32,000 nucleotides of DNA from Acaryochloris marina MBIC11017 (GTDB taxonomy: Bacteria > Cyanobacteriota > Cyanobacteriia > Thermosynechococcales > Thermosynechococcaceae). The DNA lies in assembly GCF_000018105.1 (NCBI RefSeq), contig NC_009925.1:3210001-3242000 (forward strand), given 5' to 3'. Shown here in pieces: positions 193 to 23,152 of this stretch. The stretch's first letter is position 1; each line of letters starts with the position of its first letter. Made by a program: the position numbers and the translations under genes. The notes below the pieces were generated by a model that worked only from the letters and a program-made list of their open reading frames with translations, did no database searches and was not told the DNA's origin.

Positions 193-945
193 ATGATCTC
201 TGCTCTACCGATTGTGGATAAAACTGTTCAACCCTCTGATTTAATTCCTTTACTTGGACAGTATCAGCTTCTGCCTCAGTTGCTGAAAGAACTGATTATT
301 GACCAAGTGATTCAGGATGTGCAATTAAGCTCAGAAGAAGTTGTTCAGGCTGTAGAGCAGTTCTATCGCCAGTATCAAATTGGTGAGGAAGCTAGGCGTG
401 AGGCCTGGCTAACGCATTACCGGATGACGCCTCAGCAACTGGCGGCCCAAGCTCAACGGCAGATGAAGTTGTATAAATTCAAACTCCAGACTTGGAATAA
501 CCAGGTAGAGTCTGATTTTCTGCAGCAGAAAGGGCAGTTCGATCAATACGTTTATTCCTTGATCCGAGTCGCAAGTGCTGAAGTGGCTCAAGAGTTGTAC
601 TTTCGGCTACAAGCGGGTGAACAAGCATTTGCAGATTTGGCAACCAAATATTCTCAAGGGCCTGAAGCACAAACAGGTGGTTTGATTGGTCCTGTCACGG
701 CTGCTAATCTGCACCCCACATTAGTGCAAATTCTGACCAGCGCTCAACCGGGGCAAGTACGCCCACCCATTCGTTTAGGTGAATGGTTTGTGATTGTCAG
801 CTTGCAAAAATTGATCTCGGCTCAACTAGATGCCCCACTTCGACAACAATTGCTAGAGCAGCGCTTTAATGAGTGGCTGCAATTGCAACTGCAATCTGTT
901 GTTGTATCTGATGATTCTATTGCTGTTTCTGCGCAAACACCATGA
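193..945 (+). CDS. Parvulin (PpiC)-type peptidyl-prolyl cis-trans isomerase with a SurA-N-like helical N-terminal part. No signal peptide is visible.
   Basis: 250-aa ORF. The C-terminal half (FADLATKYSQGPEAQTGGLIGPV...GEWFVIVSLQKL) looks like a rotamase/parvulin domain. Its stop overlaps the next start (ATGA at 942-945). Confidence 0.8.
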   Translation: MISALPIVDKTVQPSDLIPLLGQYQLLPQLLKELIIDQVIQDVQLSSEEVVQAVEQFYRQYQIGEEARREAWLTHYRMTPQQLAAQAQRQMKLYKFKLQTWNNQVESDFLQQKGQFDQYVYSLIRVASAEVAQELYFRLQAGEQAFADLATKYSQGPEAQTGGLIGPVTAANLHPTLVQILTSAQPGQVRPPIRLGEWFVIVSLQKLISAQLDAPLRQQLLEQRFNEWLQLQLQSVVVSDDSIAVSAQTP

Positions 946-5491: not shown

Positions 5492-5540
5492 GTCATAAAA
5501 GTCTCGGCTGAGTAGCCCCTGGTGACGAGATCAGTGAGTC

Positions 5541-5571
5541 AAATAAAAACCCTAACGAAATACCGTTAGGG
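5541..5571 (-). terminator. Rho-independent terminator for the minus-strand small ORF.
   Basis: 8-bp stem CCCTAACG / CGTTAGGG (5550-5557 and 5564-5571) with a 6-nt loop. On the minus strand the stem is followed by TTTTTATTT. The plus strand has no T tract after it. Confidence 0.6.
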
Positions 5572-5620
5572 CCAAGAGATCGATATTGGATTCAGAATAG
5601 TTCAAGCGTTATGGCGGAGC

Positions 5621-5848
5621 TTAAGCTGCTATCCTCGCCAATTTATTGCTGGATAACTCTTCTAGGGTTTCGAGCTCTAGAGACTCGTTCATGCTATCTA
5701 CATCTAGATCGAGCAGTATAAAACTGTTGATTTCTGCGTCAGATAAAAAGAGAGACTGTTCAGAATGGAAAACAGTGGTGTTTAACGTGTTAAGAAGAGT
5801 CATAGTCTGAATATTTTGGAGAAGTGCCATCTGAGAGGTCATGGTCAT
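5621..5848 (-). CDS. Hypothetical small acidic protein (75 aa), convergent with the T1SS operon.
   Basis: The ORF has 11 Asp/Glu against 2 Lys/Arg and no Gly, Pro, Cys, Trp or Tyr. A dedicated minus-strand terminator lies downstream and a palindrome lies upstream. I recognise no homology. Confidence 0.4.
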   Translation of the reverse strand: MTMTSQMALLQNIQTMTLLNTLNTTVFHSEQSLFLSDAEINSFILLDLDVDSMNESLELETLEELSSNKLARIAA

Positions 5849-5898
5849 TGGGGGAGTGTGGGTTGGTTGCTTATAGATATAGACTAGCCATTACAGTA

Positions 5899-5915
5899 AG
5901 CTTGAGAGTCAAGCT
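5899..5915. promoter_or_regulatory. Perfect 7-3-7 palindrome AGCTTGA-GAG-TCAAGCT upstream of the small acidic ORF. Candidate operator.
   Basis: Read directly from the sequence. It lies 51-67 nt upstream of the ATG at 5848 on the minus strand. Confidence 0.25.
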
Positions 5916-5996: not shown

Positions 5997-6954
5997 TATA
6001 GCAGTCGCCATTCTATTCAGGACACTAGATGTAGAACATGTTCCATTGCTTCTCTGAGAGATCCAAAATGTTCTAATTGGTGACGGATGCGACTTTTAAT
6101 CCAAGACCAAGACCGCTCAATCTTGTTCAAGTCAGGGGAATAAGGCGGTAAATACCAAACCTCACATCCTGCTTTTTCCACTAATTCCTGTATTTGTCCT
6201 CCCTTGTGAAAAGTGGCATTATCTATCACCAGCTTCTGCCCAGGCTTGAGCACGGGTATCAAGCAACGCTCTAGCCAAAGTTCAAACACAGTCCGATTGC
6301 AAGCTCCTTCGATCGTGAACGGTGCCATCAACTGCTTTGCTCTCAACGCCGCAATCATATTGACTCGGCCGCTTCTACGCCCAGTCTTCAAAGCATAAAC
6401 CCGCTCACCTTTGGGGCCATAAGCATAGTCATACTCGTCTCGATGATCCATGCCCGACTCATCCGCATAGACGATATCGTCTGGGTCCACGGTACTCAGA
6501 CGTTTGATGAACGCTGCCCGTTTGTGCTTATCTCGTTCTCGGTACCCATATGTTTTTTTTTCGAGTAAATCCGATTTTCTGGAGGGCTCTTGAGATGGTT
6601 CGATCACTAATCTCTCCATCCCATAGTTGAGCCATCTGAGCTTGGGTTTTATGACGATGCTTGTGGGCAAACGCTCGAAACTTGTCCCAGTCAGTGATTT
6701 TATGGCTATGGCCAGGATGATGGACTGGCTTGGGATGCAAATCACCCGTTTCCGCCTTGAGGTGTTGCCATTGGTTAATGGTGTTACGACTGATATCGAA
6801 CAGCTCACTAGCCTCAGAAGGGCGCATCCCATCTAGCTCAATCGCATCTATCACTTTGCAACGTAGGTCGTAACTATAAATTTTGGGCATCACACAGGAG
6901 AAGGAATAAAATACTTCTCTAGTTTAAGTCCTTCTCAATATGGCGACTGCTATA
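5997..6954 (-). mobile_element. IS630/Tc1-mariner family insertion sequence (ISY100-like, about 0.95 kb) with terminal inverted repeats and flanking TA.
   Basis: TATAGCAGTCGCCAT at 5997-6011 is the exact reverse complement of 6940-6954. The imperfect inverted repeat extends to about 27 nt, ending in AGGAC on both sides. A TA dinucleotide lies at each outer edge, consistent with TA target duplication. The element encloses a DDE transposase. Confidence 0.85.
6017..6893 (-). CDS. IS630-family transposase (HTH N-domain plus DD34E catalytic domain), split into two frames at an A9 tract.
   Basis: orfA (6528-6893) ends ...QKIGFTRKKNIW. orfB (6017-6832) continues ...KKTYGYRERD with DESG, DNATFH and, 34 residues on, the E of NKIE. 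The frames join at the A9 run (T9 on plus, 6553-6561). Removing one A gives one continuous ORF of about 291 aa. Confidence 0.85.
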
Positions 6955-7065: not shown

Positions 7066-10000
7066 CTAGATATAGCTGAAAGAACTATCTGTCAGGCTAA
7101 ATCCAGAGTCACCCATAACATTGGCAATTAACTCATCAGCGCCGCCAGCACTGCCATCACCATTAGAATCTAGATAGATTCCAGTTCCGCTCATGCCAGG
7201 GGCTGAAGCTCCTAAGACGTAATCAGATGCAGAACCACTGAGTTGAATCGTATCCTCGCTGCCATTGAAGTCAGTAATGACGGCAAAGTCAGTGAGACCT
7301 GCTGATGTTTCATCGCCATCGTTGTAGTAGGCGACGTCACCGCCAAGGACAAAATAATCTGCCCCTTCATCCCCAGTCATATAGTCGATAGAGCCACTGC
7401 CTTTAAGGGTGTCGCTGTTGGCACCGACTAATACATCGTCACCACTACCGCCTAGTAGAGTGTCATTGCCTTCTTGACCAATTAGGGTATCGTTGTTAGC
7501 GCCCCCGTCAAGGACATCATTACCTGCGCCAGCATAGAGGCCGTCGTTTCCGGCATCGCCAAAGAGCTGATCATCACCACTGCCACCATATAAGGAGTCT
7601 AGACCTGCACCACCCTGTAGATTATTAGATCCGTTGACTCCATAGAGAGCATCGTTACCGTCTCCACCCAGCAGTTGGTTATCCCCAGTGCTGCCAAACA
7701 ACTCGTCGTTGCCAGCGCCACCATCTAAAAGATCATTATCGCTATCGGCATACAGGGAATCGTCCCCTTCTCCCCCTAAGAGAGTGTCAACACCAGACCC
7801 ACCGTAGAGCTGGTCATTGCCACTGCCTCCTTCGAGGAAGTCATTTCCGCTACCGCCTTTGAGGATATCTGCTCCTGCACCAGCATTGAGGATATCGTCA
7901 TTGCTGCCGCCGTCCAGGGTGTCTTTACCATCGCCACTGGAGAGGGTATCGTTCCCAGATCCACCCTTGAGGGTGTTATTGCCACCCGTAGTGGTCAAAA
8001 CGTCATCCCCGGCACCGCCATCTAAGCGGTCGCTGCCGCTGCCACTAGAAAGGGTGTCATTGCCTCCTTGGCCGTAGAGCTTCACTTTTGCCCCGTTGGT
8101 GGAGGTAATTTCGTCATTGCCGCTATTGGCATAGAGCGTTTCAATGCCGGCTGCATCGATATCCATATTTAGGTCAGAGGTGCTTTGATAGTAAGCCGTA
8201 TCTGTACCAGTGCCGCCTTCAACCACCGTATCGTCAGCGTCGAAGTAGAGTTTATCGTTACCAGCGCCCCCGATTAATTGATCTGCACCTGCATCTCCTT
8301 TCAGGGTATCGTTGCCAGACCCACCATCTAAGAGGTCATCGCCACTACCGCCAAGCAGACTATCGTTGCCGTTACCAGAGCTTAGAGTATCGTTACCAGA
8401 CCCACCATCTAAGGTATCTTTGCCTCCGGCAGTCGTCAGGCTATCGTTACCGTCGCCACCGAATAGAGCATTGTTGCCACCGCTAGAGGATAAGACATCG
8501 TCGCCGCTGCCACCATCTAAGCGATCGCTACCGCTGCCACTGGTAAGGGTGTCATCGCCAGCTAGGCCATACATCTTAATGTTGGTGCCATTGCTGGAGG
8601 TGAACTGGTCGTTCCCAGCGTTACCGTGAATTTCTTCGATGCTGACATCATCAATATTGAGGGTTAGACCGTCGCTACTTTGGAGTTTGGCAACGTCTGT
8701 ACCGTCGCCACCATCGAAGGTGTCATCACCATCGAAGTTCAGGGTGTCGTTACCTGCACCGCCCATGAGGGTATCGGCCCCGGCATTGCCCGAGAGCACA
8801 TCATTGCCTTCTTGGCCTTCTAATAGGTCATCACCCGCGCCGCCGGAGAGGATATCATTGCCTGCTCCTGCGAGAATGGTGTCATTGCCATCACCGCCAT
8901 CGAGGTTCTCATGGCCGGTGCCGCCCGTGATACTGTCATCGCCAGCTTCACCATGAATTTCGACATTCTCGGTACCGGAATTGGTAAAGACATCATCGCC
9001 GCCAGAACCGTAGGCTAGCTCAATTTGGCTGGTGCCCAGGTCTAAGGTGACCGGTTGGTTGCCTTGGGCGCGAGCGATGTCATAACCGTCGCCGCCATCG
9101 ACTACGGTATCGTCCGCGTCGAATAGCAATGTGTCAGAGCCTTCGCCTCCATACAGTGCGTCTGCACCATCGCCACCGACCAACATGTCGTTCTCGGTAC
9201 CGCCTTCGAGGGTGTCATCCCCAGCACCCCCATCCATGTAATCATGGCCCGCTTCCCCAGAAATTAGGTCGTTGCCTTCACCTGCGATCGCAGTATCTTC
9301 ACCGGCTCCACCGGCTAGGGTATCGTCGCCCGTGCCGCCTTCAAGATAGTCATTGGCTGAGCCACCGGATAACTGGTCATTACCGCCGTTACCGAATAAC
9401 GCCACTGTGGTCGAAGCGGGAGTTCCAGCACCATTGGTATGGGTGAAAACATCATCACCACTGTTGCCGTGGGCTTCATCAAAGCTGTTGGCCCCTGCAT
9501 CAAAGACGACGCCTTCTGCAGACTCAACAATGGCAACGTCATAGCCTTCACCACCGAGGATTTGAGTGTCGGCAGCGTCAATAAAGACAACATCATTTCC
9601 GTCTCCACCTAGGAGGGTATCAGCCCCTTCACCTCCACTTAAGAAGTCATTGCCGCTGCCGCCATCAACGATGTCATTCCCGGCGTTCCCGGACAGCCAC
9701 TCGTCATTGCCGGTATTACCAGAAATAACGTCAGCTCCTGCACCACCTTCAATGACATCCTGGCCTTCGCCACCACTGAGTTGGTCGGCCCCTTCACCAC
9801 CACTTAAGTAGTCGTTTCCGGCATCACCAGAGAGGACGTCATCCCCGGCATCGCCCATGAGAACGTCTTTTTCTTCGCCACCGAAGAGGGTATCATTGCC
9901 AGCACCACCTTCTAAAATATCTGAGCCAGCTTCACCCTTCAGTAAGTCAGCATCATCACCGCCGCCTAAGGTGTCGTTACCAGCCCCACCGTATAGGGTG

Positions 10001-12594
10001 TCTAGTCCAGCATCGCCTTGGAGAACATCGTTTCCTGCATCACCAGTTAGTAAATCCTGGTCAGCGCCACCCAGAACGGTATCATCGTCTTCACCACCGG
10101 AAACAATGTCGTTCCCCCGGCCACCAGAAACGATGTCGTTGCCTGTACCGCCGGAAATAACATCGTTGCCCGTACCACCGTCGACCCAGTAGTCATCACC
10201 TGTTCCGGCGTTGAGAATGTCGTTGCCAGCCCCGCCAGTCAGAACGTCGTTGCCTTCATCCCCTGCCAAGGTGTCGTTACCCGTACCACCGCTGATGATG
10301 TCACTTTCTAAGCCACCGCTTAGCTCGTCATGGCCTGTGCCCCCATCTAGGGTGTCCTTGCCTGCGCCGCCGAAGAGCGTGTCGTCGCCGAGACCTCCTT
10401 CTAAGATGTCGTCGCCTTGGTCGCCAGAGAGATAGTCATTACCGCTGTTCCCCAAGATGGTGTCGTTGCCTTCACCCCCCATGAGGACATCATTCACAGA
10501 TGAAGCCGTGCTCGCGTGCACCGAGACGCTATCTAGATATCCACCCAAGCTATCGTCGGTGCCCACGGCTCTAAACTCAAGGGCAGTCGTATCACCATTG
10601 CCACCTTGGAGCTTATAGGTATAGGTTTGCCATTGTTCGCTTTGGCTTTCACCGTGAATGGTATCGATGAGTTCGCCATCCCAGTAAACTTCAATTGGTG
10701 TACTGTTGAGATCTACACCGGGTCTGGGAGTGTAAGCAAAAGACAGCTCGTAGGTTTGTCCTGCTACCGTGTCTAATTGCTGCATCATGCCACTGTTGTT
10801 GTGGCTATCGAGTTCTACTCGGGCTTGGCCGTCATCAGCGACCCCTATCTGCTGAACTTCGATGCCGGACCCTTGGGTACTTGTCCAACCGGATATGGAT
10901 TGGAAAACATCCCAACTCTTATTGCCCAGAGGATTGTCTTCGAAACTGCCATTGACGACGAGATTGATTTGACCCAGGCTATCTTCTTGACCGCCATCGA
11001 TAAAGTCGTTCCCAGTGCCCCCGTAGATGGTGTCGTCTCCGGAACCCCCATCCATAATGTCGTTGCCAGCATTGCCTGACATTAAATCGTTGCCGGAGTT
11101 ACCCAGAACGATGTCTTGGCCTTCACCACCGCTAACGGTATCTTCACCAGCACCGCCAGCAACCACATCATTGCCGAGGCCGCCTTCTACGAGGTCATTA
11201 CCATCGCCACCGTCGACCCAGTAGTCGTCGCCTTCACCTCCATCCAGGACATCATTGCCCGCGTCGCCCATCATGACATCGTTACCGGTGTTACCCAGCA
11301 GGGTGTCTGTCCCTCTACCGCCAGACAGCACATCTTCTCCAGCGCCGCCATCGATTAAATCAGCGCCTTCACCACCCGAGAGCCAGCCATCATTTCCAGC
11401 GCCACCGTCGATGGTGTCATTGCCCTGGCCGCCTTCAATGGCATCCATGCCTTCATCACCGGAGAGCAGATCATTCCCGACCCCACCATCGATAAAGTCA
11501 TGACCCGCACCACCGCTGATGGTGTCTTGCCCAGCATCGCCGTAGAGAACGTCCTGGTCGCCTTCGCCGGAAATGAGATCATTGCCTTCGCCGCCATGGA
11601 TATTGTCGTCTCCATGTCCCCCGTAGAGGGTATCTGTACCGGTGCCCCCATCCATATGATCGATATGTTCACCACCAAAGAGAGCATCGTCGCCCGCTCC
11701 CCCCATCATGGTGTCATCATCTGCGCCGCCGTAGAGGATATCGTTGCCTTCGCCACCATCCATGATGTCGTGGCCTTGCTCACCGTAGAGGGTATCGCTG
11801 CCTTCGCCGCCAGACATCCAATAGTCGTCACCGGCACCCCCGATTAGCTCATCGTTACCAGCTTCTCCCATGAGAATGTCATTGCCAGACTGGCCCAGGA
11901 TTTTGTCATCCCCTAGACCGCCTTTAAGGGTGTCAGCGCCTTCACCCCCATCCACTAGGTCATCCCCAGTACCGCCATCCACATAATCCGCGCCAGAGCC
12001 GGCTAATAGGCTATCTTGGCCTTCATTTCCGAGTAGATTGTCGTTGCCAACACCGCCGGTGACAAAGTCATTGCCTTCGCCGCCGCTGAGAATATCATCG
12101 CCTGCGTCCCCATGTAGGGTGTCGTCACCTGCTTCACCGGCTAGCCAGTAATCATCGCCTTGGCCGCCAATAATCATATCTGCGCCTTGGTCACCCATGA
12201 TGGCGTCTTTACCTAAGCCACCAATGAGGACATCATTACCAATGCCGCCTAAGAGAAGGTCATCATTCTGGGTACCGCTGCTAATAGCGTTGGGATCGGC
12301 GAAACCTGCACCGCTTTCATCGATGGGACCGGTATAGGTGTAGTTACCGCTTGCATCTTGTTGCCAGTTTTGGGTACCCCCTTCATCACCATGCATCCAG
12401 TCATTGCCTTGGCCGCCAGAGAGCGTATCGTTGCCTGTGCCACCTTTGACGACATCATCGCCTTCATTACCCGATAGCCAAACATCATCGCCTTCGCCGC
12501 CGATAATGGTATCGTCGCCTTCCTTGCCGACAACGACATCATCTGCCTCGGAGCCGAATAGAGCTTCGCTGCTGTCAGTACCAAATACTTGCAT
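7066..12594 (-). CDS. Giant RTX-type calcium-binding protein (1842 aa) and likely T1SS substrate. It has dozens of GGxGxDxxx nonapeptide repeats, an embedded DUF642/CBM-like beta-sandwich domain and a C-terminal secretion-type domain.
   Basis: The hemolysin-type nonapeptide repeat is pervasive. A non-repeat segment around aa 543-695 (NGSFEDNPLG...GWTSTQGSGIEVQ...YELSFAYTPRPG...) lies at nt ~10510-10970. The C-terminal ~110 aa (GADYFVLGG..YYNDGDETSAGLTDFAVITDFNGSEDTIQLSGSASDYVLG...) resembles T1SS C-terminal target domains. There is no N-terminal signal peptide. Confidence 0.92.
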   Translation of the reverse strand: MQVFGTDSSEALFGSEADDVVVGKEGDDTIIGGEGDDVWLSGNEGDDVVKGGTGNDTLSGGQGNDWMHGDEGGTQNWQQDASGNYTYTGPIDESGAGFADPNAISSGTQNDDLLLGGIGNDVLIGGLGKDAIMGDQGADMIIGGQGDDYWLAGEAGDDTLHGDAGDDILSGGEGNDFVTGGVGNDNLLGNEGQDSLLAGSGADYVDGGTGDDLVDGGEGADTLKGGLGDDKILGQSGNDILMGEAGNDELIGGAGDDYWMSGGEGSDTLYGEQGHDIMDGGEGNDILYGGADDDTMMGGAGDDALFGGEHIDHMDGGTGTDTLYGGHGDDNIHGGEGNDLISGEGDQDVLYGDAGQDTISGGAGHDFIDGGVGNDLLSGDEGMDAIEGGQGNDTIDGGAGNDGWLSGGEGADLIDGGAGEDVLSGGRGTDTLLGNTGNDVMMGDAGNDVLDGGEGDDYWVDGGDGNDLVEGGLGNDVVAGGAGEDTVSGGEGQDIVLGNSGNDLMSGNAGNDIMDGGSGDDTIYGGTGNDFIDGGQEDSLGQINLVVNGSFEDNPLGNKSWDVFQSISGWTSTQGSGIEVQQIGVADDGQARVELDSHNNSGMMQQLDTVAGQTYELSFAYTPRPGVDLNSTPIEVYWDGELIDTIHGESQSEQWQTYTYKLQGGNGDTTALEFRAVGTDDSLGGYLDSVSVHASTASSVNDVLMGGEGNDTILGNSGNDYLSGDQGDDILEGGLGDDTLFGGAGKDTLDGGTGHDELSGGLESDIISGGTGNDTLAGDEGNDVLTGGAGNDILNAGTGDDYWVDGGTGNDVISGGTGNDIVSGGRGNDIVSGGEDDDTVLGGADQDLLTGDAGNDVLQGDAGLDTLYGGAGNDTLGGGDDADLLKGEAGSDILEGGAGNDTLFGGEEKDVLMGDAGDDVLSGDAGNDYLSGGEGADQLSGGEGQDVIEGGAGADVISGNTGNDEWLSGNAGNDIVDGGSGNDFLSGGEGADTLLGGDGNDVVFIDAADTQILGGEGYDVAIVESAEGVVFDAGANSFDEAHGNSGDDVFTHTNGAGTPASTTVALFGNGGNDQLSGGSANDYLEGGTGDDTLAGGAGEDTAIAGEGNDLISGEAGHDYMDGGAGDDTLEGGTENDMLVGGDGADALYGGEGSDTLLFDADDTVVDGGDGYDIARAQGNQPVTLDLGTSQIELAYGSGGDDVFTNSGTENVEIHGEAGDDSITGGTGHENLDGGDGNDTILAGAGNDILSGGAGDDLLEGQEGNDVLSGNAGADTLMGGAGNDTLNFDGDDTFDGGDGTDVAKLQSSDGLTLNIDDVSIEEIHGNAGNDQFTSSNGTNIKMYGLAGDDTLTSGSGSDRLDGGSGDDVLSSSGGNNALFGGDGNDSLTTAGGKDTLDGGSGNDTLSSGNGNDSLLGGSGDDLLDGGSGNDTLKGDAGADQLIGGAGNDKLYFDADDTVVEGGTGTDTAYYQSTSDLNMDIDAAGIETLYANSGNDEITSTNGAKVKLYGQGGNDTLSSGSGSDRLDGGAGDDVLTTTGGNNTLKGGSGNDTLSSGDGKDTLDGGSNDDILNAGAGADILKGGSGNDFLEGGSGNDQLYGGSGVDTLLGGEGDDSLYADSDNDLLDGGAGNDELFGSTGDNQLLGGDGNDALYGVNGSNNLQGGAGLDSLYGGSGDDQLFGDAGNDGLYAGAGNDVLDGGANNDTLIGQEGNDTLLGGSGDDVLVGANSDTLKGSGSIDYMTGDEGADYFVLGGDVAYYNDGDETSAGLTDFAVITDFNGSEDTIQLSGSASDYVLGASAPGMSGTGIYLDSNGDGSAGGADELIANVMGDSGFSLTDSSFSYI

Positions 12595-12623: not shown

Positions 12624-12690
12624 ACGCTAATTGTTCAAGTTCACTAGAGTGTCAATAGGTAAAGCTATAAAAAAAACTTATGTATTGACA
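12624..12690 (-). promoter_or_regulatory. Candidate promoter/operator region of the RTX gene. It has an inverted repeat TGTCAATA (12650-12657) / TATTGACA (12683-12690). A minus-strand TTGACA (12655..12650) is followed by a 20-nt spacer and TAGCGT (12629..12624).
   Basis: Read directly. The over-long spacer is the geometry typical of MerR-activated promoters, and a MerR-family gene lies immediately upstream. The -10 match is weak. Confidence 0.2.
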
Positions 12691-12765
12691 TGGATAGGCA
12701 GGACGGTTTGTGGACTTCACCCATTGATGGAGTCCAGTAGATTAGAAATGAGGGTTTAAATGGAG

Positions 12766-13722
12766 TTAAGGAACAGGCTGTGGATAGCTAACGGTTGAGG
12801 TATCCACAACGATGGGTTCATCCACAATCACATCGTCAAGATTGGCATCAATTAAATTGCTGCCAAATAAGTTGACCCCTCGTAAATCTGCTCCCTGTAA
12901 ATTGGCTCCCATAAGGATGGCTTCGCTGAGGTTGGCACCTCGCAGGTCGGCTTCACATAAGCAAGCGCCACCCAAATTACTGCCAATTAAACTGGCGTCT
13001 GTTAAGGTGGTTTCACTTAAATCTGTACCAATCAGAACCGCATGGGATAAATCGGCCTGTTTGAGGTAAGCACCAATCATATCGGCTCCACTCAGATAGG
13101 CTTCGCGAAACGTGCATTGTTCTAGGGCAGTTTCGTTTAAACTCGCCAACATCAGTTCAGCCCGATTGAAATTGCTATGGCTGAGGAGAGTGCCGCTCAA
13201 TTTAGCTCCAATCAGCTTCATACCTGCGAAATGGCGTTCACCTGCTGCATATTTTGCCAATATGCTTCGGCTAATATCTTCATCTCCTTCCAGATCTGCA
13301 TGACTATGCTCTTCAATTGTTTGTAGCAATTTGAGAAGAGATTGAGATTGGGGGCCGACCGTACTCAGCTGCTGTAATTGTTCAAAACGACGTCCTAGTT
13401 GTTGTCGAGAATGGTTGAGTTCTGCGAGCTGTTGGTCTAATTCTTCGACATGGTGGGCTACCATTTGCTGCATGCGCTGTTGTGCATCTTTGGAATGTTC
13501 ACCAAGGTCTAGCAGTTCTTTAATTTCGTGTAGGGAGAGGCCAAAATTTTGGGCACTGCGAATGATTTGTAATCGGTTTTGAGCGGCTGTGGTGTAGAGA
13601 CGATAGCCGGATCGATTCCGTTCGGGTTGTTTCAGGAGTCCAAGTTGCTCATAATAGCGAATTGCTTGAGGCGAGACACCAAATTTACTGGCTAATTGGC
13701 CAATGAGCAGTCCAGTCGTCAT
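12766..13722 (-). CDS. MerR-family HTH transcriptional regulator fused to a C-terminal pentapeptide-repeat domain.
   Basis: The N-terminus LLIGQLASKFGVSPQAIRYYEQLGLLKQPERNRSGYRLY...LQIIRSAQNFGLSLHEIKELL is a classic MerR HTH followed by a coiled coil. About 125 C-terminal residues carry A(D/N)LxX pentapeptide repeats (ADLSHAVLIGTDLSETTLTDASLIGSNLGG...ADLRGANLSEAILMGANLQGADLRGVNL). I chose the ATG at 13722. The track start at 13791 is a TTG. Confidence 0.85.
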   Translation of the reverse strand: MTTGLLIGQLASKFGVSPQAIRYYEQLGLLKQPERNRSGYRLYTTAAQNRLQIIRSAQNFGLSLHEIKELLDLGEHSKDAQQRMQQMVAHHVEELDQQLAELNHSRQQLGRRFEQLQQLSTVGPQSQSLLKLLQTIEEHSHADLEGDEDISRSILAKYAAGERHFAGMKLIGAKLSGTLLSHSNFNRAELMLASLNETALEQCTFREAYLSGADMIGAYLKQADLSHAVLIGTDLSETTLTDASLIGSNLGGACLCEADLRGANLSEAILMGANLQGADLRGVNLFGSNLIDANLDDVIVDEPIVVDTSTVSYPQPVP

Positions 13723-13783
13723 TTCATTATCAGGGATTAGAAATCCAAGTTTTTTATCGGTTATTCTTAGGATGCCCAAATAA

Positions 13784-13834
13784 AAAGGCAATTTAGCGGA
13801 GTAAAGACGACAAGCTCCAGCAAAAATTGCCTTT
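13784..13834 (-). terminator. Long hairpin with 11-bp perfect arms (AAAGGCAATTT / AAATTGCCTTT) and a 29-nt loop, between the 105-aa gene and the MerR-PRP gene. Possible terminator or operator.
   Basis: The arms lie at 13784-13794 and 13824-13834. On the minus strand the second arm is followed by TTATTTGGG. Confidence 0.3.
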
Positions 13835-13879: not shown

Positions 13880-14197
13880 TTAAGCCACGGCAGCCACTAA
13901 ATGATTTGTGGTTTTTGGGCCAACTTTTTCTTTGAGAACATCTTGGATTTGGCGCAAATAATCTTCGGCAACTTCTTGAGGAAAATTGAGGTGAATGGTG
14001 AGATTAGGATTGCTGCTATAGATGTGTAATGAACCATAGGTGGGTAACCAGCCTGAGAAGCCAGCGACCTGTGTATAGGCGATAAATTGGAAAGCCCGAG
14101 TGCTGGGGTTAGAGTACTCAATCCCGCTTTCTGTAAGGGTAATAATGACATCGCTGTTTGCATCTTTGGGATGAAAACCTTTGAATTCCATTCTCAT
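13880..14197 (-). CDS. Hypothetical protein (105 aa), soluble, no recognised domain.
   Basis: Clean ORF with coding-like composition, flanked by AT-rich non-coding DNA. It is on the same strand as its neighbours. Confidence 0.5.
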   Translation of the reverse strand: MRMEFKGFHPKDANSDVIITLTESGIEYSNPSTRAFQFIAYTQVAGFSGWLPTYGSLHIYSSNPNLTIHLNFPQEVAEDYLRQIQDVLKEKVGPKTTNHLVAAVA

Positions 14198-14596
14198 GAC
14201 AGACTCCTAGACATGGGTCAATTTAATGTGCTCAATCTGGTGTTTGCGGAGTATTCTTTTATAGAATATTTTTGCTAAAAAAGAGTAAGTTTTCTATTTG
14301 TCGTGAGTACGAAAGCAGAAAAAGAATGACTCTTTAGTCAGATTGGATATTTCAATATTGCCCAAAAAGTAGTTCTATCTAACTTGATAATGTTGTGGTG
14401 TTTAAGTAAAAAATTTTAGACTGTATTTAATTTTTGTCGGAGATATATGAAGACTCAAACAATTTATTTTTTGTGTATACAAAATAGACAGAAAGATATA
14501 CATCCTAAACGGTGTTTTTGGATGCTCAGCAGATGGGACAGAGTCTTACTGGAGGTCCGTCTGCAGGCTGCTATTGTAGGTCTAGCACGAGCAAGT

Positions 14597-16267
14597 CTAC
14601 GGTTCCCTAGCCATCACAGCTTGCCCTTGGGCAGGAGGGTTCTTTTGGTCCCAGAGCAGCCGGTATAGCTGAATGGGGTCTTGAATGCCTTTGACTTGCA
14701 CAGGTGTCAGCTGCTGGAGCGGTACGTCACACTGATGCAGTTCATTTAAGGTGCTTTGGGAGATCAGGATTTCGCCAGCACGGGCCACGTCACATATACG
14801 ACTACTGACGTTAGTGGTATTGCCAATGGTGCCGTATTGAAACAGTTGTTCAGACCCAATATTGCCAGCGGCAACGACGCCAGTGTTCACCCCAATATGA
14901 ATCTGAATGTTAAAGTTCCACCGCTTGGCCCAGCGTTGATTCAGTTTGGAGACGGCTTTTTGCATGGCGATGGCGGCTTTCACTGCCCGCTCTGCATCGT
15001 TGGGATGTTGATAGGGGGCTCCCCAGACGGCCAATAGGGCATCGCCAATATATTGTTCTAAGGTGCCTTCGTATCGGAAGACGATTCCCTCCACCATGAC
15101 GCTAAAGTATTCGTTGAGCATGGTGATGACTTGGCGGGGTTCGAGGCGCGAAGAGAGCTCTGTAAACCGACTGATGTCAGCAAAGACGACGGTGACTTTG
15201 GTGTCAATGACCTCTAATTGGCTTTCCTCACTTAATTTTCGCCAAACGTTTTGTGGGAAAAAGCGTTCTAATTTGGTACGCAGAACGGCTTCAGTTTGAA
15301 TCTTTTTGTAGAGATGGGCATTGTCGATTGCGATCGCAGCCTGATTCGCTAATCCACCTAAAAATTCCAGGTCTTCTTCCGAATAAATGGCCCGCACAGA
15401 CAGGTTGTCTGTGTACAACACCCCAATCACCTCATCCCTAGGCTTCAGGGGGACGCACATGGCGGCATGGATGGCCTGCTGGACGATGGATCGCGATTCG
15501 TGAAATCTGCGATCGCGGGCGGCATCATCCGTGAGGATGCCTTCGCCCGATCCATAAACAAAATTCGTGATGGTGGTGCTGTAAAAGCGAAGTCCCGTGG
15601 GAATACCACTCCGGAATTTGATCGCTTTTTGTTCTAGCTCCTGGGTGTGAGGATTGACCAAGAGAATTAAACCCCGGTCAACGGTCATAATCTCAAACAG
15701 CAAATCGAGAATTTTATCGAGCAGCTCTTCTAACTCTTTGGGAGAAGACAGCTGTTGACTGACTTCGAGCAGAATTTTGAGCTTATCAACCGAGCGGGTT
15801 TGATCATCCTGTTGTTTGAGCTTCAAACCCACCCCGGATTCGCCGGGGGCTTCGGGTTCTAGTAAATCTTGGAGTTCAATCCGAGTATTTTCCGGGGCAA
15901 AACGACTAATGATGGAAAGGGATTGATCTGGGGGTGGACTGGGGGGACTCAGATCTGGGATGGTGGCCGTCAAATTCCAGGTGATTTGCATATCAATGGT
16001 CCCGAACCGGACCCGATCACCATCCTTGAGATGGCATTGCTGAATCGGCTGATCGTTAACGTAGGTATGGTTGAGGCTATCTAAATCCTTGAGGACAGCC
16101 TGACCATTTTCTTGGACCATCAGCTCCGCATGATGACGCGATAAGCTTGGGTGCATCAGCACAATATGATTGTCTAACCCCCGGCCAATCGAATTGGATC
16201 CTGTAACCAAGGTGTAGGATTTGGGATTTGGTGCATTGGGGGGAGCCACTAAGTACGGCACATGCAC
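14597..16267 (-). CDS. FHA domain - GAF domain - class III adenylate/guanylate cyclase.
   Basis: FHA: IGRGLDNHIVLMHPSLSRHHAEL...LKDLDSLNHTYVND. GAF: aa ~190-320 (VDRGLILLVNP...GVLYTDN). Cyclase: VTVVFADISRFTELS...YIGDALLAVWGAP...GNTTNVSSR, with both metal Asp and the catalytic Asn/Arg present. Confidence 0.9.
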   Translation of the reverse strand: MHVPYLVAPPNAPNPKSYTLVTGSNSIGRGLDNHIVLMHPSLSRHHAELMVQENGQAVLKDLDSLNHTYVNDQPIQQCHLKDGDRVRFGTIDMQITWNLTATIPDLSPPSPPPDQSLSIISRFAPENTRIELQDLLEPEAPGESGVGLKLKQQDDQTRSVDKLKILLEVSQQLSSPKELEELLDKILDLLFEIMTVDRGLILLVNPHTQELEQKAIKFRSGIPTGLRFYSTTITNFVYGSGEGILTDDAARDRRFHESRSIVQQAIHAAMCVPLKPRDEVIGVLYTDNLSVRAIYSEEDLEFLGGLANQAAIAIDNAHLYKKIQTEAVLRTKLERFFPQNVWRKLSEESQLEVIDTKVTVVFADISRFTELSSRLEPRQVITMLNEYFSVMVEGIVFRYEGTLEQYIGDALLAVWGAPYQHPNDAERAVKAAIAMQKAVSKLNQRWAKRWNFNIQIHIGVNTGVVAAGNIGSEQLFQYGTIGNTTNVSSRICDVARAGEILISQSTLNELHQCDVPLQQLTPVQVKGIQDPIQLYRLLWDQKNPPAQGQAVMAREP

Positions 16268-16616: not shown

Positions 16617-18146
16617 ATGACCAAACTCTTAAATAACCGTTATCAAGTCCTGGATGTGTTAGGGGGCGGTGGCTTTAGCACCACGTTTTTGGTCGAAGAC
16701 ACCCATATGCCGTCTCGGCGTCGCTGTGTCTTAAAACAGCTCAAGCCCGTGAGCGTTGACCCCTCGATTCAAACGCTGGTGCAAGAGCGGTTTCAGCGGG
16801 AAGCGGCCATTCTAGAAACCTTAGGAGAAGTCTCGGATCAGATTCCCCGACTGTATGCCTACTTTACGGAAGCCCATCAATATTATTTAGTCCAAGAGCT
16901 GATCGAAGGGCGAACCCTAGCAGAAGTGATCCAGACGCAAGGCGCGCTCAGTGAAGCGACGGTCCTCGATATTTTGATGAGATTGCTGCCGATTATCGAT
17001 CTGATTCATCAACGAGGCATTATTCATCGAGATATTAAGCCAGAAAATATTATCTTGCGTAACCAGGATGGCAAACCGGTCTTAATTGACTTTGGGGCGG
17101 TGAAAGAGACCCTAGGGACGGTGATGAATCCCCAGGGCCAACCCACTAGCTCGGTGGTGATTGGCACTCCTGGATTTATGGCGACTGAGCAATCTCGAGG
17201 TTTTCCTACTTATGCCAGTGATTTGTATAGTTTGGGGCTGACCGCGATTTATTTGCTCACGGGTAAGTTTCCCCATGAGCTGAATATCGATCCCCAAACC
17301 AGCCAGTTACGCTGGCATCAATCGGTGCTGAATGTATCTCCTGGGTTCGCGACGGTTCTCGATCGATCTATTAACCTGGCAGCTCGTGATCGCTATGGGT
17401 CAGCTCCTGACTTTTTGCAAGCGCTCCACGATAGCACGATCAAACCTGTGGCTGATGCGGTGCAGCCGCCCGCCGCACCTGCCTATGCTGAGCCGCCCCC
17501 GATCATGCAGCCAGAGGGATTGCCCACGAATACCGCTGCACCTACGCCTGTGCCTAACTTTACTCCTAAGAAAGTTGGGATACTAAGTGCGATCGCACTC
17601 GCGTCTGCGGTGGTTAGCTTTGTGGCCGTCCAACAGCTATGGCCAGTGATGGCAGGACTTGTAGCGGGCCGTACTGATGATCCTAGCCCCACGGAACTTA
17701 GCCCTGGCGTATCGCCCACTGATACACCTGAGGCATCATCCAGCCCGACTCCAGAGGTATCGCCTAGTTTAACCCCAGAGGTATCACCCAGTGTGACGCC
17801 GGAGGCATCGCCGCCACCGACGACCCAATTTGCTGCGATTGCCTACTCCATCCCCACAGGTACTTATGGGTATGGGTTGCGGTACCCGTCTCAGGCGGCT
17901 GCCGAACAACGGGCTCTTCAAGAATGTAATCAGCGTGTCCCGGCACAAGATTGTCAAGCCTTGTTTTGGTTTAAAAATGCCTGTGGGAGTTTAGTCCGGG
18001 CCACATCGGGAGCCTATGGCTGGGCGTGGAGTGAAACTATTCAGGAAGCAGAGCAAGAAGCGCGCAAGCAATGTTCTAGCTTTGGGGGCACCGATTGTCA
18101 AATTTTGCTGAACCTGTGCAGCGATCGCGTGATCCAATCCAGCTAA
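16617..18146 (+). CDS. Hanks-type Ser/Thr protein kinase with a TM helix, a Pro/Ser/Thr-rich linker and a C-terminal Cys-containing DUF4189-like domain.
   Basis: Motifs include GGGGFSTTF, VLKQL, HRDIKPENIIL, DFG and GTPGFMATEQ. The TM helix is GILSAIALASAVVSFVAV. The C-terminal segment is AAIAYS..GTYGYG...ECN...DCQALFWFKNACGSL...GAYGWAWS...CSSFGGTDCQILLNLCS. Confidence 0.9.
   Translation: MTKLLNNRYQVLDVLGGGGFSTTFLVEDTHMPSRRRCVLKQLKPVSVDPSIQTLVQERFQREAAILETLGEVSDQIPRLYAYFTEAHQYYLVQELIEGRTLAEVIQTQGALSEATVLDILMRLLPIIDLIHQRGIIHRDIKPENIILRNQDGKPVLIDFGAVKETLGTVMNPQGQPTSSVVIGTPGFMATEQSRGFPTYASDLYSLGLTAIYLLTGKFPHELNIDPQTSQLRWHQSVLNVSPGFATVLDRSINLAARDRYGSAPDFLQALHDSTIKPVADAVQPPAAPAYAEPPPIMQPEGLPTNTAAPTPVPNFTPKKVGILSAIALASAVVSFVAVQQLWPVMAGLVAGRTDDPSPTELSPGVSPTDTPEASSSPTPEVSPSLTPEVSPSVTPEASPPPTTQFAAIAYSIPTGTYGYGLRYPSQAAAEQRALQECNQRVPAQDCQALFWFKNACGSLVRATSGAYGWAWSETIQEAEQEARKQCSSFGGTDCQILLNLCSDRVIQSS
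17724..17819 (+). repeat. Four tandem 24-nt coding repeats that encode TPE(A/V)S(S/P)(S/P)x units of the kinase linker.
   Basis: The units are 17724-17747, 17748-17771, 17772-17795 and 17796-17819. They translate to TPEASSSP, TPEVSPSL, TPEVSPSV and TPEASPPP. Confidence 0.8.
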
Positions 18147-23029: not shown

Positions 23030-23152
23030 TGACCAATCCTTTTTGTGTGTATCCTTTGTGCCTTGGAAGACATTTTTGTGTTGTGTAAGTCGATTCTAAA
23101 TTCTCTATTTAGCTGTAATGTCAATAGATTGCTTGATTAGTATTTCTTATGA

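What the first reader, a model, noticed from the sequence alone, without database searches (positions are those of the whole stretch)
12766..13722. MerR DNA-binding domain fused to a pentapeptide-repeat (DNA-mimic fold) domain in place of an effector-binding domain
The canonical MerR architecture is HTH, then a coiled-coil dimerisation helix, then a small ligand-binding C-terminus. Here the C-terminus is about 125 residues of A(D/N)LxX pentapeptide repeats, roughly six coils of a right-handed quadrilateral beta-helix. Characterised PRPs such as MfpA and Qnr mimic B-form DNA and bind DNA-binding enzymes. A DNA-binding domain covalently tied to a DNA-mimic suggests either an auto-inhibitory or competitive switch, or a scaffold that recruits another DNA-binding protein. 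The gene sits between an unknown 105-aa gene and the giant RTX gene, on the same strand, and near a cyclase/kinase signalling pair.
Basis: partly seen in the sequence, partly recalled or inferred. Interest (0 to 1): 0.6.

Follow-up and report, generated by a model that had tools for sequence, protein, structure and literature searches.

The report
MerR regulator with pentapeptide-repeat sensor domain
A small, cyanobacteria-only family of MerR-type gene switches carries a pentapeptide-repeat beta-helix where the metal or drug sensor normally sits, and in this genome it lies beside three MerR-style promoters that drive giant secreted RTX proteins. That gives a testable handle on what such repeat domains do.

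Summary
Window 12766..13722 (-) encodes a 318-aa protein with a MerR winged-HTH, a long dimerisation helix, a linker and 27 pentapeptide repeats, predicted with high confidence as a beta-helix. It is not a frameshift artefact. About 36 clusters (at 90% identity) share the co-linear architecture, in Acaryochloris, Pleurocapsales/Xenococcaceae and Gloeomargarita, and the repeat domain is 145 aa with no indel in all 26 orthologues aligned.

There are no metal-binding cysteines. The repeat domain is closest to HetL, a transcription-factor-binding protein, rather than to the gyrase DNA mimics MfpA and Qnr. It lacks their C-terminal dimerisation element.

New here: the window holds three promoters of the MerR class (TTGAC-N21-TAnnnT, 20-bp spacer) with degenerate CueR/HmrR-like boxes. 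They lie upstream of the adjacent 1842-aa RTX gene, a second RTX-GH16 gene and a 75-aa ORF beside the type I secretion genes. The regulator, 20-bp-spacer promoter and RTX orthologue arrangement recurs in a lineage whose regulators are 43-46% identical.

Best reading: a MerR-class regulator of an RTX exoprotein regulon, with a protein-binding repeat domain as its input. The DNA-mimic autoinhibition idea is neither supported nor excluded. It is a new variant of a known kind, of moderate interest.

The parts
12766..13722 (-). MerR-PRP gene (318 aa plus stop)
   Evidence: ORF and translation. Pfam MerR_1, MerR-DNA-bind and Pentapeptide. Co-linear orthologues at 41-92% identity.
13507..13722 (-). 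Residues 1-72: MerR winged helix-turn-helix DNA-binding domain
   Evidence: PF13411 residues 7-72 and PF00376 residues 7-43. IRYYE, R35 and GYRLY are invariant. pLDDT 75-89. Closest solved relatives are Bacillus MerR 4ua1, CueR and CadR.
13360..13491 (-). Residues 78-121: long dimerisation (coiled-coil) helix
   Evidence: AlphaFold2 helix 78-121. PF09278 covers 49-109. The sequence is poorly conserved, with entropy 1.96.
13285..13359 (-). Residues 122-146: variable linker at the position of the metal-binding loop, with no Cys or His site
   Evidence: Low pLDDT of 50-68, disordered at 140-147. Orthologues carry 7-14-aa insertions and have no conserved Cys. The ZntR model aligns to 7-139 but below its cut-off.
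13228..13284 (-). Residues 147-165: N-cap helix of the repeat domain (LxxYxxGERxFxG motif)
   Evidence: AlphaFold2 helix 147-159. Y158, G161, R163 and F165 are invariant. Aligns to HetL from residue 25.
12823..13227 (-). Residues 166-300: 27 pentapeptide repeats, a right-handed quadrilateral beta-helix of about 6.75 coils
   Evidence: PF00805 at 1.2e-47. pLDDT 87-97. Foldseek hits to repeat-protein structures. No indels in 26 orthologues and net charge -6 to -16. Three faces are conserved and one is variable.
12769..12822 (-). Residues 301-318: non-conserved, disordered C-terminal tail
   Evidence: pLDDT 32-58. Length varies from 4 to 23 aa and entropy is 2.17.
12711..12736 (-). Conserved stem-loop about 30 nt after the stop codon, with no U-tract
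   Evidence: RNA fold of -11.9 kcal/mol, z -2.7, and similar in L002 and L083. The arms GGACT...AGTCC are conserved.
12624..12655 (-). Promoter A (MerR class): TTGACA, 20-bp spacer, TAGCGT. It lies 30 nt upstream of the RTX1 start codon.
   Evidence: Pattern hit. Conserved in L002 and L083-86. 11/18 matches to the literature HmrR/CueR box at fixed register, p=0.005.
7066..12594 (-). RTX1: 1842-aa RTX exoprotein, the putative primary target
   Evidence: HemolysinCabind in 47 stretches. Orthologues lie directly downstream of MerR-PRP in L002, L083, L009 and L082.
5881..5912 (-). Promoter B (MerR class): TTGACT, 20-bp spacer, TAGTCT
   Evidence: 12/18 matches to the HmrR/CueR box, p=6e-4. Nearly identical in L083-86 (1 of 32 bases differs in the spacer).
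5621..5848 (-). 75-aa acidic ORF driven by promoter B, followed by an intrinsic terminator (5540..5573)
   Evidence: ORF. Conserved as a 66-aa ORF plus a partial tandem copy in L083. Terminator of -15.4 kcal/mol, z -4.1. No Pfam match.
23093..23124 (-). Promoter C (MerR class): TTGACA, 20-bp spacer, TAGAAT. It lies 64 nt upstream of RTX2.
   Evidence: 11/18 matches to the box, p=0.005. An equivalent site is in L083 and L086.
20747..23029 (-). RTX2: 760-aa RTX protein with a GH16 glucanase domain, a putative second target
   Evidence: HemolysinCabind and Glyco_hydro_16.
13880..14197 (-). 105-aa PH-like protein, a recurrent neighbour and candidate partner
   Evidence: No Pfam or NCBIfam match. 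The family has 21 clusters, all cyanobacterial where a source names the organism. AlphaFold2 pLDDT 88.8, seven strands plus a C-terminal helix, with PH/PTB/FERM-F3 hits. Adjacent to MerR-PRP in window, L002, L083-86, L008 and L013. Adjacent to an RTX1 orthologue in L087.
942..5491 (+). Type I secretion genes convergent with RTX1: an ABC exporter with cNMP-binding and C39-like domains, and a HlyD-type membrane fusion protein
   Evidence: Pfam. Same arrangement in L083-85.

Best explanation
The gene encodes a genuine MerR-family one-component transcription regulator. Its N-terminal winged-HTH and antiparallel coiled coil should form the usual MerR dimer.

That dimer most likely sits on MerR-class promoters. 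These have a suboptimal 20-bp spacer between -35 and -10 and carry a degenerate CueR/HmrR-like box. Such promoters lie in front of the adjacent giant RTX exoprotein gene, a second RTX-GH16 gene, and a small 75-aa gene next to the type I secretion genes. As in other MerR proteins, activation would come from untwisting or kinking the spacer so that -35 and -10 are realigned.

What differs is the input. The cysteine metal loop is gone. A flexible linker of about 25 residues connects to a HetL-like pentapeptide-repeat beta-helix, which is as strongly conserved as the DNA-binding domain. I infer that this rigid, acidic helix receives a protein signal rather than a small molecule. By analogy with HetL binding HetR, it would bind a partner, and docking against the partner subunit's DNA-binding domain would change the spacing of the two recognition helices. 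The recurrent PH-like 105-aa neighbour and components of the RTX/secretion system are the obvious candidate partners.

Shown: the architecture, fold, conservation, synteny, and the presence and conservation of the promoters.

Inferred: that this protein, and not another MerR paralogue, occupies them; the direction of regulation; and the role and partner of the repeat domain.
For: Architecture and fold.

Real, conserved fusion: about 36 clusters at 90% identity, 41-92% identical and co-linear. Found in Acaryochloris, Xenococcaceae/Pleurocapsa and Gloeomargarita. The repeat domain is exactly 145 aa in all 26 aligned. Column entropy is 0.98 for the repeats and 1.01 for the HTH, against 1.96-1.99 for the coil and linker.

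Promoters:
- The a-priori pattern TTGAC-N21-TAnnnT occurs 4 times in the window against 0.8 expected; 1 of 100 shuffles reached 4.
- The three intergenic hits all point at genes and share yTmnAG...AnT..A.
- The same motif occurs in 1.25 Mb of fetched loci only at MerR-PRP loci and next to an unrelated MerR gene, L068.
- A PWM built from the cyanobacterial sites retrieves, in 924 kb of unrelated loci, only six hits. All are canonical CueR-type boxes in loci retrieved through their MerR genes: directly beside that gene in L033, L069, L078 and at L068 7140, and about 2 kb from it for the overlapping pair at L068 9491/9518.
- Against the published HmrR box ACCTTCCAG/CTGGAAGG (PMC1526738), extended by a terminal T and spaced by 4 instead of 3 to fit a 20-bp spacer, at a fixed register, the sites score 11, 12 and 11 of 18 in the window and 13-14 of 18 in L009 and L082. 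Background gives P(>=11)=0.005 and P(>=12)=6e-4. The chance hit inside the gene scores 8.

Conserved regulator-target synteny: MerR-PRP, then a 20-bp-spacer promoter, then a true RTX1 orthologue, in Acaryochloris and in L009/L082. The regulators are only 43-46% identical, and the RTX proteins are 47% identical from residue 1.

MerR-PRP is the only MerR-family gene in the 32-kb window.

MerR proteins act on 19-20-bp-spacer promoters (PMC8113463, PMC1526738, PMC9909328).

The repeat domain is closest to HetL, and HetL binds a transcription factor (PMC7476756).
Against: - The two half-sites resemble the CueR/HmrR consensus, but they are poorly complementary to each other: 5 of 12 pairs in site A, against 11 of 12 by my hand count for the canonical box of L069. 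In the 7-pair window that computed, site A scores 5 and L069 scores 6. Characterised MerR operators are strong palindromes.
- No such promoter was found within the fetched flanks of the Xenococcaceae and Gloeomargarita orthologues.
- In Acaryochloris MAG L001 the regulator is intact, but neither RTX gene is adjacent and the 105-aa gene is a pseudogene.
- The regulator is co-directional with its presumed target, not divergent as is typical. No box was found at its own promoter.
- Other MerR paralogues elsewhere in the genome cannot be excluded as the true regulator.
- The partner and signalling role of the repeat domain are pure inference. The conserved-face signal is partly explained by structural Gly and Asp/Asn positions.
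Confidence: 0.55

Rival explanations
1. Intramolecular DNA mimicry. The acidic beta-helix occupies the basic DNA-binding surface of its own or the partner subunit's winged-HTH and keeps the regulator off DNA until a signal displaces it.
For: The repeat domain is consistently acidic (net -6 to -16, pI 4.1-4.8). The HTH domain is basic (net +1 to +7 in 25 of 26 orthologues). A flexible, low-confidence linker of about 25 residues could allow docking. The fold is shared with MfpA, Qnr and AlbG. From general knowledge, the beta-helix diameter is similar to B-DNA, and 6.75 coils of about 32 A correspond to roughly one operator half-site.
Against: The closest relatives are HetL-type proteins, not gyrase mimics. 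There is no conserved C-terminal dimerisation element to build a long DNA-like rod. Acidity is generic for this repeat family, as far as I know. The most conserved surface includes hydrophobic positions (I171, M191, I231, M271) and aromatic ones (Y209, Y219), not only a charge pattern. No computation here addresses docking.
Confidence: 0.15
2. Promoter-tethered recruitment. The repeat domain binds another DNA-acting protein (DNA gyrase or a topoisomerase, RNA polymerase, or a second transcription factor). It concentrates or shields that protein at 20-bp-spacer promoters, so that activation depends on local DNA topology or on a co-factor.
For: Characterised members of the fold bind gyrase (MfpA, Qnr and AlbG structures among the hits) or a transcription factor (HetL-HetR, PMC7476756). 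Promoters with over-long spacers are intrinsically sensitive to twist (MerR mechanism, PMC8113463, PMC9909328).
Against: There is no direct evidence. Similarity to MfpA and Qnr is weak (E about 1e-8 to 1e-6, against 1e-22 for HetL). Qnr loops and the dimer interface are absent. No gyrase or topoisomerase gene is in the neighbourhood.
Confidence: 0.1
3. The three MerR-class promoters belong to a different MerR paralogue, for example a CueR-like protein encoded elsewhere. MerR-PRP regulates other, unlinked genes, or only itself and the 105-aa gene. Its position next to RTX1 would then be synteny without regulation.
For: The boxes resemble CueR/HmrR boxes generally. Orthologues in Xenococcaceae and Gloeomargarita have no adjacent site or RTX1 orthologue. 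L001 keeps the regulator without the RTX genes.
Against: The regulator, 20-bp promoter and RTX1-orthologue adjacency is conserved across lineages at 43-46% regulator identity. No other MerR gene lies in the window. Canonical metal-sensing MerR proteins use strong palindromes and control metal efflux genes, not exoproteins (PMC1526738).
Confidence: 0.2

Closest known systems
Metal-sensing MerR subgroup (MerR, CueR/HmrR, ZntR, CadR/PbrR)
   Same: The N-terminal winged-HTH plus dimerisation helix are the best sequence matches: 4ua1 MerR 1.4e-16, CueR and CadR about 1e-12. NCBIfam ZntR, MerR, CueR and CadR score 77-88 bits. The candidate target promoters have the 20-bp spacer and a box resembling ACCTTCCAG...CTGGAAGGT at the canonical register.
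   Different: All NCBIfam scores are below their cut-offs. There is no Cys or His metal loop. About 180 extra residues form a repeat beta-helix. The boxes are weak palindromes. The regulator gene is co-directional with its presumed target, not divergent. The targets are RTX exoproteins, not metal efflux genes.
MerR proteins with large C-terminal ligand domains (BmrR, Mta and TipAL types)
   Same: The same plan: DNA-binding domain, coiled coil, then a sizeable folded C-terminal input domain. According to the review PMC9909328 this is a GyrI-like domain in the multidrug group.
   Different: The input domain here is a pentapeptide-repeat solenoid with no pocket-forming fold, so a small-molecule ligand is unlikely. 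The review lists metal loops, redox clusters and GyrI-like domains but no pentapeptide repeats.
HetL (All3740) and HetL-like cyanobacterial pentapeptide-repeat proteins
   Same: HetL is the closest natural relative of residues 153-295, including the N-cap motif: NCBIfam penta_HetL 96.5 bits and 3du1 at 2.1e-22. HetL works by binding the transcription factor HetR without blocking its DNA binding (PMC7476756). That is a precedent for repeat domain to transcription factor signalling.
   Different: HetL is a stand-alone protein. The score here is far below the HetL equivalog cut-off (96.5 against 260). The organisms carrying MerR-PRP are not heterocyst formers, and no HetR link is known.
DNA-mimic pentapeptide-repeat proteins (MfpA, Qnr, AlbG, EfsQnr)
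   Same: The same right-handed quadrilateral beta-helix fold and overall acidity.
   Different: Sequence similarity is much weaker. There is no conserved C-terminal dimerisation helix or strand and no Qnr loops. The domain is half the length of the MfpA dimer rod. No gyrase context is present.
Other HTH plus pentapeptide-repeat architectures (HTH_VMAP-M9 with repeats, in cyanobacterial conflict-type systems)
   Same: Several repeat-domain hits (for example P0079, P0091 and P0115) carry PF26355 HTH_VMAP-M9 together with pentapeptide repeats. An HTH tied to such a solenoid is therefore not unique. PMC7159879 treats the repeats as scaffold or effector modules.
   Different: They have a different HTH family, a different domain order and size (about 450-470 aa), no MerR coiled coil, and no link to 20-bp-spacer promoters.

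Membership tests
MerR family of transcription regulators | N-terminal winged helix-turn-helix of the MerR type | tested here: met
   PF13411 at 60.1 bits (cut-off 21.6) and PF00376 at 55.9 bits (cut-off 28.2). Invariant IRYYE, R35 and GYRLY.
MerR family of transcription regulators | Long dimerisation helix following the DNA-binding domain (antiparallel coiled coil) | tested here: met
   PF09278 at 59.2 bits (cut-off 25.4). AlphaFold2 gives a single helix at 78-121. Dimer formation itself was not modelled.
MerR family of transcription regulators | Acts at promoters with a 19-20-bp spacer containing a palindromic operator | tested here: inconclusive
   Three 20-bp-spacer promoters with CueR/HmrR-like half-sites lie at the right register near the gene, and they are conserved in a second lineage. 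The palindrome is weak and binding by this protein is untested.
Metal-sensing MerR subgroup (CueR, ZntR, MerR, CadR) | Cysteine or histidine metal-binding loop at the C-terminal end of the dimerisation helix | tested here: not met
   No Cys or His is conserved in residues 73-165. The region is variable with 7-14-aa insertions. All NCBIfam equivalog scores are below their cut-offs.
Pentapeptide repeat family (PF00805) | Tandem A(D/N)LXX repeats | tested here: met
   PF00805 at 159.5 bits (cut-off 20.2). There are 27 in-register pentapeptides at 166-300.
Pentapeptide repeat family (PF00805) | Right-handed quadrilateral beta-helix fold | tested here: met
   Prediction only: pLDDT 87-97. The top 39 Foldseek PDB hits are pentapeptide-repeat proteins or designs derived from them, and the E3 ligase NleL first appears at rank 40.
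DNA-mimic, gyrase-targeting repeat proteins (MfpA, Qnr, AlbG) | Homodimer through a C-terminal element, giving a long DNA-like rod | tested here: not met
   The C-terminal tail at 301-318 is non-conserved, 4-23 aa long and disordered.
DNA-mimic, gyrase-targeting repeat proteins (MfpA, Qnr, AlbG) | Family-level sequence membership (Qnr and MfpA models), and Qnr loops | tested here: not met
   mfpA scores 43.8 bits (cut-off 360) and Qnr scores 42.3 bits (cut-off 240). No loop insertions, with zero indels in 26 orthologues.
DNA-mimic, gyrase-targeting repeat proteins (MfpA, Qnr, AlbG) | Binds or protects DNA gyrase; electronegative DNA-like surface | not testable with these tools
   Only the net charge could be computed (-8; -6 to -16 across the 26 orthologues aligned). 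That is compatible but not diagnostic.
HetL (heterocyst differentiation repeat protein) | Equivalog-level similarity to HetL | tested here: not met
   NF047416 scores 96.5 bits against a cut-off of 260. The domain is HetL-like but not a HetL orthologue.

The most novel reading that the evidence does not exclude
The repeat beta-helix acts as a tethered nucleic-acid mimic or topology adaptor. Either it plugs the MerR DNA-binding surface until a partner removes it, or it recruits DNA gyrase or a topoisomerase (or another DNA-binding protein) to over-spaced promoters. RTX expression would then be set by local DNA twist. This would be a previously undescribed way of switching a MerR-class promoter, and the first defined cellular job for a cyanobacterial pentapeptide-repeat domain outside HetL.
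Probability: 0.12. Interest if true: 0.85.

Novelty: new variant of a known kind. Interest (0 to 1): 0.55.

Why it matters
Pentapeptide-repeat proteins are very abundant in cyanobacteria, yet only a handful have any known function. MerR regulators are textbook allosteric switches whose known inputs are metals, redox state and drugs.

A conserved MerR protein whose input module is a repeat beta-helix would add a protein-sensing class to the family. It would also give a simple read-out for what such a domain binds and how it signals, namely the activity of defined 20-bp-spacer promoters in front of RTX genes.

It also points to a compact, testable regulon for giant RTX surface or exoproteins and their type I secretion locus in Acaryochloris and Pleurocapsales. 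The regulation of these proteins in cyanobacteria is, as far as I know, largely uncharted.

Tried and rejected
1. Frameshift or annotation artefact. Rejected: the ORF is intact and 26 orthologues are co-linear.
2. Metal sensor. Rejected: no Cys or His loop, and scores are below the NCBIfam cut-offs.
3. Searching for a strong shared palindrome in upstream and downstream regions of 14 orthologous loci (7-bp arms, at most 1 mismatch). Nothing was shared.
4. The standard sigma-70 promoter scan missed the sites, because it allows only 16-18-bp spacers.
5. The dyad TATTCT-N5-AGAATA upstream of the 105-aa gene was considered as the operator. It sits in a normal 17-bp-type arrangement and is only partly conserved, so I did not pursue it.
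6. Looking for MerR-class promoters or boxes near Xenococcaceae, Gloeomargarita, L001, L008, L013 and the PH-like-protein loci. None was found.
7. The 100-128-aa ORFs upstream of MerR-PRP in L082, L008 and L009 are small membrane proteins unrelated to the 105-aa protein.
8. The stand-alone 270-aa repeat protein downstream in L004 and L006 is a membrane-anchored repeat protein and gave no information.
9. Rfam scan of 5400-14700: no RNA family.
10. The profile search of 1.84 billion representatives was swamped by giant repeat proteins. It showed only that full-length relatives are rare, with four representatives in the top 150.
11. Literature searches for a described MerR plus pentapeptide-repeat fusion found none.
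Full report

Window 12766..13722 on the minus strand is an intact ATG-initiated ORF of 318 codons. Pfam finds MerR_1 (residues 7-72), MerR-DNA-bind (49-109) and MerR, all above their gathering scores. It also finds Pentapeptide PF00805 at 1.2e-47 in six stretches, plus Pentapeptide_3 and Pentapeptide_4.

Putting the C-terminus into register gives 27 consecutive pentapeptides at residues 166-300.

An AlphaFold2 model built on 26 orthologues has a mean pLDDT of 82.9. It shows:
- a winged-HTH at residues 1-75
- a single long helix at 78-121
- a poorly defined segment at 122-146
- a cap helix at 147-159
- a beta-solenoid with pLDDT 87-97
- a disordered tail at 301-318

The top 39 Foldseek PDB hits are pentapeptide-repeat proteins or designs derived from them, before the E3 ligase NleL first appears at rank 40.

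**It is not an artefact, and it is a small, old family**

A search of 5.8 billion proteins returns 36 clusters at 90% identity with exactly this architecture, 305-338 aa long and 41-92% identical. They come from Acaryochloris (so the window is from an Acaryochloris relative), Xenococcaceae and Pleurocapsa, Xenococcus, and Gloeomargarita. After these, only repeat-only proteins follow.

A scan of one genome per species finds full-length copies only in these cyanobacterial groups. A profile search of 1.84 billion 50%-identity representatives shows just four full-length representatives among the top 150.

In the alignment of 26 orthologues, the repeat domain is exactly 145 residues with no indel. 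It is as conserved as the DNA-binding domain, with mean column entropy 0.98 against 1.01. The coiled coil and linker are free to vary, at 1.96 and 1.99. Three faces of the solenoid are conserved and one is variable. The conserved faces include the motifs MLASLNE, NLGGACL and ANLSEA, surface aromatics Y209 and Y219, and a ladder of I/M residues. Part of that signal is structural, from Gly and Asp/Asn turn positions, so I treat it only as a hint of an interaction surface.

**What each half resembles**

The N-terminal half is closest to the metal-sensing MerR group: Bacillus MerR 4ua1, CueR and CadR, and the NCBIfam ZntR, MerR, CueR and CadR models. Every equivalog score is below its cut-off. The segment that would hold the metal-binding loop has no conserved Cys or His and carries 7-14-residue insertions in other lineages. 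This is not a metal sensor.

The C-terminal half, including its N-cap motif, is closest to HetL/All3740: NCBIfam 96.5 bits (below the 260 cut-off) and PDB 3du1 at 2.1e-22. MfpA and Qnr match far more weakly. HetL acts by binding the transcription factor HetR at the PatS site without blocking DNA binding (PMC7476756).

The features that let MfpA and Qnr imitate a long DNA rod are absent. There is no conserved C-terminal dimerisation element and there are no Qnr loops. The domain is acidic in every orthologue (net -6 to -16). That fits mimicry, but as far as I know it is generic to the repeat family.

**Context**

In the window and in four other Acaryochloris contigs the gene order is as follows:
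- FHA-GAF-adenylate/guanylate cyclase
- 105-aa protein
- MerR-PRP
- giant RTX protein (1565-1842 aa)
- convergent HlyD-type protein and ABC exporter, the latter carrying a cNMP-binding domain and a C39-like domain

The window additionally has an IS630-type transposase inserted after the RTX gene.

In Pleurocapsa PCC 7319 (L082) and a related MAG (L009), the regulator follows two DUF3131 genes and a cellulose-synthase-like GT2. In L082 it is only 46% identical. It is again followed on the same strand by a large protein. BLAST shows that protein is a true orthologue of the window's RTX1: 47% identity from residue 1, and it shares a non-repeat insertion.

The 105-aa protein has no Pfam or NCBIfam match. 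Its family has only 21 clusters, all cyanobacterial where a source names the organism. It is predicted with pLDDT 88.8 to be seven strands plus a C-terminal helix, a PH/PTB/FERM-F3-like fold. It lies next to MerR-PRP in three lineages in two different orientations. Elsewhere it lies next to an RTX1 orthologue or DUF3131 genes without the regulator. The three genes therefore look like members of one functional neighbourhood concerned with surface or exoproteins.

**The main new result: MerR-class promoters**

MerR proteins activate promoters whose -35 and -10 elements are separated by 19-20 bp and contain the operator (PMC8113463, PMC1526738, PMC9909328). The standard scan, limited to 16-18 bp, saw nothing.

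Searching TTGAC-N21-TAnnnT gives four hits in the window against 0.8 expected; 1 of 100 shuffles reached four. One is antisense inside the MerR-PRP gene. The other three are intergenic and point at genes:
- 12655..12624 (-), 30 nt upstream of the RTX1 start codon
- 23124..23093 (-), 64 nt upstream of a second RTX protein with a GH16 domain
- 5912..5881 (-), upstream of a 75-aa acidic ORF that ends in a clean intrinsic terminator and sits between RTX1 and the secretion genes

All three are conserved in other Acaryochloris strains. The same architecture (TTGACC, 20 bp, TATCTT) lies between MerR-PRP and the RTX1 orthologue in L009 and L082.

The sites share yTmnAG...AnT..A. That pattern occurs in 1.25 Mb of fetched loci only at MerR-PRP loci and next to an unrelated MerR gene. 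A PWM built from the cyanobacterial sites retrieves only six hits in 924 kb of unrelated loci. All are canonical CueR-type boxes in loci retrieved through their MerR genes (Actinomycetes and Anaerolinea). They lie directly beside that gene in L033, L069 and L078 and at L068 7140, and about 2 kb from it for the overlapping pair at L068 9491/9518.

As an a-priori test I scored the published HmrR box ACCTTCCAG/CTGGAAGG (PMC1526738) at the fixed register from the -35 element. I extended it by a terminal T and spaced the halves by 4 instead of 3 to fit a 20-bp spacer. The window sites match 11, 12 and 11 of 18 positions, and L009 and L082 match 13 and 14. Background gives P(>=11)=0.005 and P(>=12)=6e-4. 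The chance hit inside the gene matches only 8.

MerR-PRP is the only MerR-family gene in the window.

**Caveats on the regulon**

- The two half-sites are only weakly complementary to each other. In site A, 5 of 12 pairs are complementary, against 11 of 12 by my hand count for a canonical box. In the 7-pair window that computed, the scores are 5 and 6. The operator is therefore atypically asymmetric.
- No comparable site lies within the fetched flanks of the Xenococcaceae or Gloeomargarita orthologues.
- One Acaryochloris MAG (L001) keeps the regulator without the adjacent RTX genes and with a decayed 105-aa gene.
- Another MerR paralogue elsewhere in the genome could be the real regulator.

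**Mechanism I consider most likely (confidence about 0.55)**

A MerR-type dimer binds the 20-bp-spacer promoters of an RTX exoprotein regulon and switches them by the family's DNA-distortion mechanism. The HetL-like repeat solenoid replaces the metal loop or drug pocket as the input domain and receives a protein signal.

In solved MerR structures, the C-terminal module of one subunit packs beside the DNA-binding domain of the other. A rigid solenoid on a roughly 25-residue linker is well placed to alter the spacing of the recognition helices when a partner binds. The PH-like neighbour, the 75-aa peptide, and secretion or RTX components are candidate partners. None has been tested.

They are not favoured by the similarity pattern or by the missing dimerisation element.

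**Novelty**

Searches of 8 million full texts found no description of a MerR plus pentapeptide-repeat fusion. A recent MerR review lists metal loops, redox clusters and GyrI-like domains as inputs, and no repeat domains. Public annotations call these proteins only 'pentapeptide repeat-containing protein', 'putative transcriptional regulator' or 'uncharacterized protein YjbI with pentapeptide repeats'. Other combinations of an HTH with pentapeptide repeats exist, such as HTH_VMAP-M9 with repeats (PMC7159879).

I therefore rate this a new variant of a known kind. The fusion is real, rare and uncharacterised, and there is now a concrete, testable regulon.

Noticed in passing
window 5540..5912 (-): A 75-aa acidic ORF (MTMTSQMALLQNIQ...LSDAEINSFILLDLDVDSMNE...) has its own MerR-class 20-bp-spacer promoter and a strong intrinsic terminator. 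It lies between RTX1 and the type I secretion genes. In L083 it is 66 aa and is followed by a partial tandem copy. It has no Pfam match. The LSDAEI motif is vaguely leader-peptide-like, and the nearby ABC exporter has a C39-like domain.
   Followed up: partly
window 13880..14197 (-); L001 about 7540..7860: The 105-aa protein belongs to an unannotated family of 21 clusters, all cyanobacterial where a source names the organism, with a confidently predicted PH-like fold. In Acaryochloris MAG L001 it has lost its start codon and is frameshifted.
   Followed up: partly
window 942..5491 (+), 14597..16267 (-), 16617..18146 (+): The type I secretion ABC exporter carries an N-terminal cyclic-nucleotide-binding domain. 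A FHA-GAF-adenylate/guanylate cyclase and a Ser/Thr kinase with DUF4189 lie a few kb away. This suggests a kinase, FHA-cyclase, cNMP, exporter chain that controls secretion.
   Followed up: no
window 6017..6893 (-): An IS630-family transposase (HTH_Tnp_IS630 plus DDE_3, apparently in two overlapping frames) is inserted between RTX1 and promoter B. It is absent at this position in L083-L086.
   Followed up: partly
window 12711..12736 (-); L083 about 10989..11012: In L083, the stem-loop after the MerR-PRP stop codon is closer to the reverse complement of the window's copy (22/24) than to the direct sequence (17/24). The hairpin appears to have been inverted between strains. It has no U-tract.
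   Followed up: partly
window about 14245..14275 (-): A conserved block, TTAGCAAAAATATTCTATAAAAGAATACT with the dyad TATTCT-N5-AGAATA, lies upstream of the 105-aa gene in three Acaryochloris strains. It may be the promoter or operator of the 105-aa and MerR-PRP pair.
   Followed up: no
L008, L009, L082 (upstream of MerR-PRP); L089: There is a recurrent block of two or three DUF3131 genes plus a cellulose-synthase-like GT2 with a HATPase_c_2 domain, next to MerR-PRP. In L089, DUF3131 genes lie next to the PH-like protein. This hints at a link between the regulator and exopolysaccharide or glucan metabolism.
   Followed up: no
L009 about 7870..7940: A tandem heptamer repeat (GGAGTTA, about 9 copies) lies immediately upstream of the MerR-PRP gene in this MAG.
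   Followed up: no
L068 7109..7140 and 9491..9518; L069 5952; L078 2722; L033 7987: Canonical CueR/HmrR-type boxes in 20-bp-spacer promoters lie in the loci of unrelated MerR genes of Anaerolinea and Actinomycetes MAGs. Most lie directly beside the MerR gene, and the L068 9491..9518 pair lies about 2 kb from it. The PWM built from the cyanobacterial sites picked them up, and they served as positive controls.
   Followed up: yes
window 20747..23029 (-): The second RTX protein combines RTX repeats with a GH16 beta-glucanase domain. It is missing, together with RTX1, from the syntenic region of Acaryochloris MAG L001.
   Followed up: partly
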